Of a stretch of DNA of 64,000 nt, positions 55,042 to 56,658 are shown one piece after another. The first letter of the stretch is position 1. Each line of letters opens with the position of its first letter. This DNA comes from Iphione sp. A-MEVVRFRX5 (lineage: Eukaryota), in contig OZ320313.1 in NCBI GenBank assembly GCA_976226885.1, positions 107,942,001 to 108,006,000 of the forward strand, written 5' to 3'. The notes beneath the pieces are model-generated. The model worked only from the letters and a program-made list of their open reading frames with translations, ran no database searches and was not told where the DNA came from. Made by a program: the position numbers and the translations under genes.

Positions 55042-56658
55042 ATGGCCCAAGACGGGACAGGCAGGGATCCTTCCCCCCCTAAGCTGCCTCGCATTCTGAG
55101 GAAGGGCATGCACCTCCCGGAGGGGGCTATCCTATGTGAATTATGCACGACACGAAAGCGTCCCTTTTTCCCTGGGGAGTCCCTGGAGAGGCACCTGAGA
55201 GACTACCATCGGGGCAAACGTCAACAACGGTGGCTCTGTGTTTATTGCCCTAGCCGAATTAAAGATATGTATGCCTGGCTAGGGCATGTGCACAAGCACC
55301 ATCCCTGGGTGGAGGGGCTGGGGCTCCTAGACCGACCCTACCGACTGCTGTACAAGGAGACCCCCGACGGAGACATTGAAGTACCCAGGGATGGGGTGGC
55401 CCAAACGATTATCCGGGCTCGAGCTGCCCGCCTACAGGGACGTATACTGGATCGCGAGCAGGTTGAGAGTATGCTGGCTGCACACCCCCGGGCGGCCATT
55501 CCAATGTGTCCCATCACTAGCCTGGAAGACCTCCCGGCCTTGCTGGGGGGCCCCACAGCCCCTCGCACGGGGGCCAAGGTGCCCGAGGCAGCTCCACGGG
55601 AAGGGTTTGATGCACAGGGGACAGAGGGTCAGCAGGTCCCACACGACCCCATGCCCGGCCCCTCCTGGGCAAGTGAGGGGGATCCCAGAGCATCCCAGGC
55701 GCCGGCACTGGGGCCCGTGGCCACTGCGGCTTCATGCGACGACGGTGACGACGACAGTGGGGCCGTCTCCTGGGGGGACCCGCCCCTCACCCCCTACTTG
55801 GACGCCGTTTCCTGGGACACCTCTGAGGCTGCCTCTGTGGCCGCCCGATTGCTACAAGATGCGGAGGAGATGGCAGCAGGTGAAGAACGAAGTGTTGCCA
55901 AAGGGGGAGCTCCTGGAGACCCATTGCTAGCTGGGCCTACCTCGGTGCCTCCCCCAGCTCTTCCCGAAGGACAGCTGTCACGGCTGGTGCGCCGCCTGCT
56001 CCCTCCGGACCGAGTGGCCCCCACCTCAGACCGGGTGCGAGCATACTTAGACGGTCTGATGCCCCATCTTAAAGCTATGATGCGGCATCCGTCAGCGCCA
56101 GCAACAGTCCGCCTGCCTGAGAGGATTACCTGGCCGCCCCCTCGGTGGCAACAGATGTGACCAGAACAACGTCTCCTCGCTTGCTCTTCCCTAGCCTGGG
56201 TCCTTCACATGGTGGAGGATGAGGGGGAGTTACCCGAGGACCTCCTGGGGCCCCTACGACAGCGGCCTGCGCTCCTGCTGCCGGGCCTCGCCCTTCCCCG
56301 GCAAACGGAGTGGGGGAACCATGAGACGATCACCGAAAAGAGCAACCGAGCCGTGGAGGGGGCAGAGGAGCTGATAAAAGACCTGCAGCCCGGCCCAGCA
56401 TGGGACTCGGACCAGCCCCGCCTCAACACAGAAGCATGGGCCAAGGAGGCGGAAGCGGTCCGGGCCTGGCAACGCCGACATACCCCCACCCTCCATGACA
56501 TCTGTGTGGGGACGTCTCCCCGCCAAATCTGTTTGGGGGCGAGTAGTGTGTGGACATCCCCCATCGGAGCAGAACCGGTTCCCAGTCAGACGGGAAAGAG
56601 GAGTTCGAAGGGTAAGGTAGGGGTAAAAGGAAAGAAGGCACGAGCCAGTGCGATTTAG
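55042..56658 (+). CDS. Gypsy accessory ORF: tandem C2H2 zinc-finger protein, 538 codons with one in-frame TGA (56158-56160)
   Basis: CELC-x15-HLRDYH and CVYC-x12-HVHKH; ORF-track pieces 55042-56160 and 56209-56658 share a frame with no other stop between them; basic C-terminal tail. Confidence 0.75.

What the first reader, a model, noticed from the sequence alone, without database searches (positions are those of the whole stretch)
55042..56658. Gypsy third ORF is a tandem C2H2 zinc-finger protein, not env, and is probably one 538-aa protein broken by a single nonsense change
Finger 1 is C-x2-C-x15-H-x4-H (atypical spacing) and finger 2 is canonical C-x2-C-x12-H-x3-H. They are followed by a low-complexity linker, a probably helical domain spanning the stop (ERITWPPPRWQQM*PEQRLLACSSLAWVLHM), and a basic NLS-like tail (GKRSSKGKVGVKGKK). 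No signal peptide or transmembrane segment is evident, so it is not env-like. ATG TGA CCA would be ATG CGA CCA before a CpG transition (inference). A GTGAGT donor at 55017 and a ccttccccccctaag acceptor at 55083 could make a 67-nt 5' intron and move the start to Met at 55108, keeping both fingers.
Basis: partly seen in the sequence, partly recalled or inferred. Interest (0 to 1): 0.78.

Follow-up and report, generated by a model that had tools for sequence, protein, structure and literature searches.

The report
Retrotransposon's own zinc-finger regulator gene
A large family of jumping genes in this genome carries an extra gene for a two-zinc-finger protein, broken by one stop codon in this copy, and each subfamily also carries clusters of its own short DNA motif at its promoters, which suggests, without proving it, that these elements encode their own sequence-specific gene regulator.

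Summary
Confirmed. ORF3 (55042-56658) of this young Gypsy element is one 538-codon gene. Its internal stop is private: 29 of 29 other copies read a sense codon there, and dN/dS is about 0.02-0.23 on both sides. It has two conserved C2H2-type fingers (both H-x4-H), a helical extension, a variable linker and an unclassified C-terminal domain. It is not env. The 67-nt intron and the basic tail are not conserved.

New here: seven ORF3 groups carry a group-typical palindrome (five distinct motifs). It is clustered both in the LTR upstream of the TATA box and between ORF3 and a conserved, apparently spliced antisense gene. Two groups share nearly the same RT yet differ in ORF3 and motif. In 20 unselected elements with the same primer site, 18 carry a tandem-finger ORF3. 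In ten of them the standard zinc-finger code predicts GCGGAG, which is the motif clustered in their LTRs.

Best reading (0.66): an element-encoded, sequence-specific regulator of its own promoters, working like foamy-virus Tas or plant VANC. Binding is untested, eight distant relatives lack a cluster, and host factors remain a rival.

The parts
47417..48129 (+). 5' LTR, 713 nt, TG...CA; five palindromes at 47465-47716 in 72-nt tandem units; TATA at 47906
   Evidence: 1 mismatch to the 3' LTR
48131..48148 (+). Primer-binding site; matches a tRNA-Leu 3' end (tRNA identity recalled, not tested)
   Evidence: 4,696 exact matches in G000
48158..48987 (+). gag with CCHC knuckle; frameshifted near 48815 in this copy
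48903..52598 (+). pol, open: protease, RT, RNase H, integrase (Gypsy order)
53499..54343 (-). Predicted three-exon antisense gene (54343-54282, 54217-54188, 54075-53499; 222 aa in frame); poly(A) signal 53398-53393; no Pfam match
   Evidence: last exon conserved in 17 aligned copies; splicing inferred from sequence only
54391..54426 (-). TATA box (54426-54420) and initiator-like TCAGT of the antisense gene, seen in representatives of all seven groups
54444..54995 (.). Internal cluster of seven palindromes TTG(G/C)G-n4-CCCAA with unrelated flanks, between the antisense TATA and ORF3
55017..55022 (+). Splice-donor-like GTGAGT upstream of the ATG; GT donor kept in 24 of 30 copies; partner acceptor unknown
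55042..56658 (+). ORF3, 538 codons plus terminal stop
55135..55209 (+). Finger 1, C-x2-C-x15-H-x4-H, invariant Arg at helix position +6
55237..55302 (+). Finger 2, C-x2-C-x12-H-x4-H, Trp at helix position +4
55303..55485 (+). Conserved helical extension after the fingers
   Evidence: block pLDDT 75-93
55948..56565 (+). Conserved C-terminal domain (WPP motif), no known family; spans the internal stop
56158..56160 (+). Copy-specific nonsense codon (codon 373)
56593..56637 (+). Basic tail, not conserved across groups
57470..57494 (+). Polypurine tract
57495..58207 (+). 3' LTR with five palindromes at 57543-57794

Best explanation
ORF3 is an accessory gene of a large Gypsy clade, and it encodes a nuclear, sequence-specific DNA-binding regulator of the element's own promoters. 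SHOWN: a conserved two-finger protein under purifying selection; group-typical palindromes clustered upstream of the LTR TATA box and in the internal promoter region; the motif follows the ORF3 group rather than pol. INFERRED: the finger pair, probably as a dimer, binds the palindrome; the C-terminal domain recruits host co-factors; this drives the LTR (genomic RNA) and the internal region (antisense gene and probably ORF3 itself). Activation or anti-silencing is favoured about 2:1 over repression. In this copy the stop would leave the fingers and remove about two thirds of the C-terminal domain; gag is broken too, so the copy is probably dead.
For: (1) dN/dS 0.02-0.15 in the finger domain and 0.02-0.21 after the stop, 11 pairs, three finger-domain values saturated. 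(2) AF2 model of the N-domain: pLDDT 83.9, two hairpin-helix units; most top fold rows are C2H2 proteins, all weak. (3) Window: 14 exact palindrome sites (24 strand matches against 0.06 expected), all in the two LTRs or the internal cluster. (4) 26 elements of 7 groups: own motif in both places and near zero for unrelated motifs, shuffles at most 0.5. A de novo test recovers a shared motif in 8 of 8 representatives. (5) Internal and LTR sites have unrelated flanks (28% identity), and motif bases are more conserved than their surroundings in 6 of 6 pairs. (6) Groups C and D share one RT clade (100/99) but differ in ORF3 and motif. (7) In 10 more distant elements, finger helices of type R-x-D-D-x-x-R and R-x-x-N-x-x-R predict GCG-GAG (code: PMC5260015, PMC1920264). 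GCGGAG occurs 4-13 times at the LTR end and leader in 10 of 10 (expected 0.2-0.7) and 5-15 times before ORF3 in 9 of 10; the motif was seen before the fingers. (8) Mismatches in the palindromes show no G-U bias on the plus strand (35 against 39). (9) Four pol-deleted elements keep gag and an open ORF3.
Against: No binding, expression or localisation data. The window's own finger helices are non-canonical, so the code does not predict its palindrome. Eight distant elements with a demonstrably homologous ORF3 show no shared cluster above shuffles. The ten code-matching elements are only analogous by position and layout; homology to the window's ORF3 was not shown (hhalign 1.8% and 1.5%). In two of them GCGGAG is also frequent in pol. 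ORF3, the internal cluster and U3 are physically linked, so co-segregation alone is not proof. Motif patterns were derived from the same elements they were counted in. One group-G element had no LTR site. Pfam C2H2 scores are below cut-off.
Confidence: 0.66

Rival explanations
1. The motif clusters are sites for host transcription factors that each group has recruited, and ORF3 does something else (protein scaffold, integration targeting, silencing suppression without sequence specificity).
For: The GC-rich motifs resemble GC boxes (recalled resemblance). Eight ORF3-bearing distant elements lack clusters. Finger-2 helix residues of the window's group are not basic. Linkage can explain co-segregation.
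Against: Five different motifs replace one another in two separate places at once, four of them in one shared geometry. In ten elements the element's own fingers predict the motif, including a GTGCGGAG form that is not a classical GC box.
Confidence: 0.22
2. The palindromes act as hairpins in the RNA or cDNA (packaging, dimerisation, strand transfer), with ORF3 as an RNA- or cDNA-binding helper.
For: A 4-nt spacer between 5-6-nt arms is tetraloop-like. Weak Pfam hits to a dsRNA-binding finger (E 0.11, 2 of 15).
Against: No G-U preference on the plus strand, and repeated uncompensated C-C mismatches. Group D has no spacer. The GCGGAG motif is not palindromic. Sites sit directly upstream of two TATA boxes.
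Confidence: 0.08
3. ORF3 is an env-like gene, two separate genes, or a programmed read-through.
For: Position after pol, where env usually lies.
Against: No hydrophobic segment (max 19-residue Kyte-Doolittle mean 0.75-1.48 in 15 of 15). No env family match. The stop is absent from 29 of 29 other copies.
Confidence: 0.02

Closest known systems
Foamy-virus Tas (Bel1) with its internal promoter (PMC13220597, passages read)
   Same: A regulator encoded between pol/env and the 3' LTR, with response elements in both an internal promoter and the LTR U3.
   Different: Tas belongs to Retroviridae. Here the host element is Gypsy, without env; the binder is a C2H2 pair, the sites are palindromes and the partner gene is antisense. 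No sequence comparison with Tas was run.
VANC anti-silencing proteins of Arabidopsis VANDAL transposons (PMC5735166, abstract and Results part 2 read)
   Same: TE-encoded, family-specific binders whose short targets accumulate at high density, often in tandem repeats, and change between related families; conserved domains separated by variable regions.
   Different: VANDALs are plant DNA transposons; VANC carries DUF1985/DUF287, not C2H2 fingers, and its motifs are arrayed in one orientation. No chromatin effect was tested here.
Non-env ORF3s of Gypsy elements: bdelloid GDSL/DEDDy ORF3 (PMC5408684, abstract and passages), plant Ogre extra ORFs (PMC6431247, passages), MDG1 sORF1/sORF2 (PMC11952523, passages)
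   Same: Extra ORF after pol in place of env.
   Different: Those are enzymes, fusogens or of unknown function; the passages read describe none as a zinc-finger protein with matching cis sites.
Classical C2H2 zinc-finger transcription factors (CTCF, INSM1, ADR1, Tramtrack)
   Same: Cys2His2 ligands and predicted hairpin-helix fold; weak sequence and fold matches.
   Different: Long finger-1 spacer, H-x4-H in both fingers, 9-residue basic linker, and a C-terminal domain with no known relative.

Membership tests
Ty3/Gypsy (Metaviridae) LTR retrotransposon | pol order protease-RT-RNase H-integrase | tested here: met
Ty3/Gypsy (Metaviridae) LTR retrotransposon | TG...CA LTRs, PBS, PPT | tested here: met
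Ty3/Gypsy (Metaviridae) LTR retrotransposon | 4-6 bp target-site duplication | tested here: not met
   Flanks differ; the left flank is rearranged, so this does not bear on the class
env / errantivirus ORF3 | Signal peptide and transmembrane anchor | tested here: not met
   (hydropathy scan; no dedicated signal-peptide predictor was run)
env / errantivirus ORF3 | Similarity to a fusion-protein family | tested here: not met
   No such Pfam or PDB sequence match
C2H2 zinc finger | Invariant C-x2-C ... H-x3-5-H ligands | tested here: met
   8 of 8 ligands invariant in 15 of 15 representatives
C2H2 zinc finger | Hairpin-helix fold | tested here: met
   AF2 model, pLDDT 83.9; fold matches are weak (best Z 3.6, rmsd 3.1, 63 aligned)
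C2H2 zinc finger | Pfam gathering score | tested here: not met
   Best E 0.003-0.005, below cut-off
C2H2 zinc finger | Zinc binding and sequence-specific DNA binding | not testable with these tools
   Indirect only
VANC | DUF1985/DUF287 domains, Mutator-like host element | tested here: not met
VANC | Family-specific dense target motifs in non-coding regions (works-like feature) | tested here: met
   that they are targets is inferred
VANC | Loss of silencing marks at targets | not testable with these tools
   No chromatin data
Foamy-virus Tas | Spumavirus genome with env | tested here: not met
   No env
Foamy-virus Tas | Transactivation of internal promoter and LTR | not testable with these tools
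   Architecture only
Troyka | CG...CG termini (PMC12440569, passages) | tested here: not met
   Termini are TG...CA

The most novel reading that the evidence does not exclude
A whole Gypsy clade, thousands of copies in this genome, encodes its own C2H2 transcription factor. Each lineage has evolved a private protein-site pair that drives the LTR and an internal promoter, and the 3' regulatory cassette (antisense gene, sites, ORF3, U3) is swapped as a module between pol backbones. That would make these complex retrotransposons with self-coded regulatory circuits, and a natural library of small orthogonal finger-site pairs.
Probability: 0.55. Interest if true: 0.88.

Novelty: new variant of a known kind. 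Interest (0 to 1): 0.78.

Why it matters
LTR retrotransposons are usually thought to depend on host transcription factors; self-encoded regulators are known from complex retroviruses and from some plant DNA transposons. A Gypsy-encoded C2H2 regulator with lineage-specific sites would extend this to Metaviridae and could explain how many related families coexist without cross-activating. It is directly testable: at least five predicted protein-site pairs come with built-in cross-specificity controls. It could also spread new binding sites, and a transcription-factor gene, through the host genome.

Tried and rejected
67-nt intron and start at 55108: rejected. Basic tail as conserved NLS: rejected. 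Read-through or two genes: rejected. env: rejected. RNA hairpin reading: disfavoured.

Homologue searches outside the genome: the search for homologous proteins found none in 3 searches (weak evidence by the tool's own note). The full HMMER scan gave one marginal hit, P0002, E 7e-4. Metagenome loci: none of 50 candidate stretches confirmed. The Atlas gave only unnamed or C2H2-like leads with a low recognition score for the full protein, and no usable hit for the C-domain. Fold searches of the N-domain gave no match at E <= 0.001 and no Z >= 5. No RNA run was listed, which is no evidence on expression.

Palindrome search in the eight distant homologous elements: nothing above shuffles; a weak CGGACC excess in seven of them also appears in pol. 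Homology of the ten code-matching ORF3s to the window's: not shown.

Literature searches aimed at prior description listed nothing describing this; Repbase Reports and most subscription journals are not in the library, and no supplements were read.

Full report
CONTEXT. The window lies in a 1.18-Gb eukaryotic assembly, probably an invertebrate animal (inference; not determined). [quoted passage not shown] There is no target-site duplication; the left flank is a rearranged DIRS-like element holding an inverted partial copy of the same Gypsy.

THE OBSERVATION. ORF3 runs 55042-56658 with one stop at codon 373. A DNA search of the genome scored 40 of 63 candidates; the best 30, including this copy, were fetched. 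All 29 others read a sense codon at that position. 16 of the 29 have an uninterrupted frame; 13 have different lesions. Nei-Gojobori dN/dS over 11 pairs of natural copies is 0.02-0.15 for the finger domain (three pairs saturated), 0.04-0.23 for the C-domain before the stop (one saturated), 0.02-0.21 after it, and 0.13-0.47 for the linker. It is one selected protein with a private lesion. Finger-domain searches returned 1,127 and 1,988 candidates, 150 scored each, so the gene is abundant.

ANATOMY. In 15 representatives of seven groups (A = the window's, B-G; 36-69% identical to the group-A reference) all eight zinc ligands are invariant. AF2 gives the N-domain pLDDT 83.9 with two hairpin-helix units and further helices. 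Sequence and fold matches are weak and mostly C2H2 proteins. The C-terminal domain of about 200 residues has 26 invariant columns in 35 copies and no Pfam or PDB match; the only outside hit is P0002 at E 7e-4. It could not be modelled. There is no hydrophobic segment, so it is not env. The basic tail is group-specific.

THE PROPOSED INTRON. The GT donor is kept in 24 of 30 copies. The AAG acceptor is lost by a synonymous change in 5 of 30, three of which keep the donor. The codons between the acceptor and 55108 vary mostly synonymously, and one of them is invariant across all groups. The ATG at 55042 is kept in 29 of 30, the exception being a poorly aligned copy. The start at 55042 stands. The donor may pair with another acceptor; group D has a donor-like site in the same place.

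WHAT SURROUNDS IT. Between pol and ORF3 lies an antisense gene. Its last exon is conserved in 17 aligned copies; it has a TATA box and an initiator-like TCAGT in representatives of all seven groups, and conserved splice signals (13 of 14 stretches gave the exon anchor). In the window three exons join in frame. Directly upstream of this TATA, and reaching to about 50 nt before the ORF3 ATG, are seven copies of the palindrome TTG(G/C)G-n4-CCCAA. Five more lie in each LTR, 190-440 nt upstream of its TATA. The exact pattern has 14 sites in the window, all in these three places (24 strand matches against 0.06 expected); with one mismatch 3 of 20 sites lie elsewhere. Flanks of internal and LTR sites are unrelated (28%), so this is not a duplicated segment, and motif bases are more conserved than their neighbours in 6 of 6 pairs.

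GROUP-TYPICAL MOTIFS. In 26 elements, counted as internal/3' with at most one mismatch: A TTGGG-n4 6-7/4-5; B TTGGG-n4 7-12/9-15; C TGGCG-n4 8-11/5-8; E TCGTG-n4 7-9/5-10; F TCGTG-n4 3/3; G a TTGGG/TCGGG mix 1-7/0-2 (one of four had no 3' site); D TCGGGCCCGA 2-4/0-1. Under a looser core D has 5-6 sites before the LTR TATA in 4 of 4. Unrelated motifs score 0-2 and shuffles at most 0.5. The patterns came from these same elements; an unguided 10-mer test also found a shared motif above shuffles in 8 of 8 representatives. Groups C and D fall in one RT clade (100/99) yet have deeply different ORF3s and motifs (RT tree of 23 of 28 elements, five lacking the RT stretch, bootstrap not fully settled). 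The motif thus travels with the 3' cassette; linkage alone could do that, so this supports but does not prove recognition. A and B, which share the motif, are also sisters in the RT and C-domain trees. Four pol-deleted elements keep gag and an open ORF3. Mismatched pairs in the palindromes are not biased to G-U on the plus strand (35 against 39 C-A), as expected for duplex DNA sites.

AN UNSELECTED SAMPLE. The primer site has 4,696 exact matches. The first 20 on C1 were fetched. 17 have a tandem C2H2 pair in the ORF3 position and an 18th has profile hits; two have neither. Eight are true distant homologues (C-domain 45-71 bits; hhalign 93%) and show no motif cluster above shuffles: this counts against generality. 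The other ten have more canonical fingers (Pfam zf-C2H2 above cut-off in 3 of 4 tested). Finger 2 reads R-R-D-D-F-x-R in 7 of 10 and finger 1 has R(-1) N(+3) R(+6) in 6 of 10. Published tables pair RSDDLVR with GCG and RSDNLVR with GAG (PMC5260015, table passage), with finger 1 on the 3' triplet (PMC1920264, Table 1 passage), giving GCGGAG. That hexamer occurs 4-13 times at the LTR end and leader in 10 of 10 (expected 0.2-0.7), 5-15 times before ORF3 in 9 of 10, and 0-4 times in pol in 8 of 10 (10 and 19 in the other two). It occurs 0-1 times in the eight homologues and 0-2 times in 11 A-G elements. This is the strongest hint that such third genes read their own element. It is by analogy only: homology to the window's ORF3 was not shown.

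MECHANISM. Most likely ORF3 binds the palindromes, probably as a dimer (inferred from symmetry; untested), at the LTR and at the internal promoter region, and recruits co-factors through its C-terminal domain. Activation or anti-silencing is favoured by the upstream position of the sites; sites close to the ORF3 start suggest autoregulation of either sign. Overall 0.66. Rivals: host factors (0.22), RNA or cDNA hairpins (0.08), env or read-through (0.02).

COMPARISON. It works like foamy-virus Tas, which binds an internal promoter and then the LTR (PMC13220597, passages), and like VANC, whose dense short targets change between related transposon families (PMC5735166, abstract and Results part 2). 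It is a member of neither. Non-env ORF3s of Gypsy elements are known (PMC5408684 abstract and passages; PMC6431247 passages; PMC11952523 passages; PMC2774666 passages). Passages of PMC13269885 and PMC12440569 added nothing on this; bioRxiv 10.64898/2026.08.24.746577 was seen as a listing and holds none of my terms. Seven searches aimed at prior description listed none; Repbase Reports, most subscription papers and supplements were not seen and could hold an annotation. Earlier scan notes report other zinc-finger third genes in fungal and euglenid elements; these are unchecked leads.

VERDICT. Observation confirmed; interpretation right on the main point, wrong on the intron and the tail. New variant of a known kind, interest 0.78.

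Noticed in passing
window 41486-46677: Inverted, 99% identical partial copy of the same Gypsy (pol to the antisense last exon), 740 nt left of the 5' LTR; a 25-nt indel separates its two arms.
   Followed up: partly
window 40100-41485 and 46640-47416: Fragments of a DIRS-like element (gag-like ORF; tyrosine recombinase, PF00589 E 9e-5) interrupted by the Gypsy copies; a 144-nt repeat at 39992 and 58290 may be its terminus.
   Followed up: partly
window 32109-34931: LINE-like endonuclease plus RT reading frame broken by stops (identity judged by eye).
   Followed up: no
window 53499-54343 (-): Conserved spliced antisense gene of unknown function, Ser/Pro-rich, with a long poly-T tract in its last intron; no Pfam match.
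   Followed up: partly
window 52599-53192: 197-codon frame directly after the pol stop, also open in three close copies (180-197 codons); no Pfam match.
   Followed up: no
window 56710-57305: Several 67-97-nt direct repeats in the 3' untranslated region.
   Followed up: no
L128, L133, L138, L139, L140: In these distant elements the finger pair lies in the same open frame as upstream pol-region sequence (frames of 1,034-2,549 codons), so a pol-ORF3 fusion is possible.
   Followed up: no
L061, L070, L073, L076; L134, L140: Elements with most of pol deleted that keep gag and the zinc-finger gene.
   Followed up: partly
L064-L066, L069, L071, L075: Groups C and D share a nearly identical RT but different 3' cassettes, which points to recombination between families.
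   Followed up: partly
P0002: 168-aa unnamed protein from a 1,053-nt ENA contig with the WPP motif; the only relative found outside this genome.
   Followed up: partly
window 7288-7660, 28376-28757, 61135-61608: Dispersed 31-nt-unit repeats in both orientations, probably a non-autonomous element.
   Followed up: no
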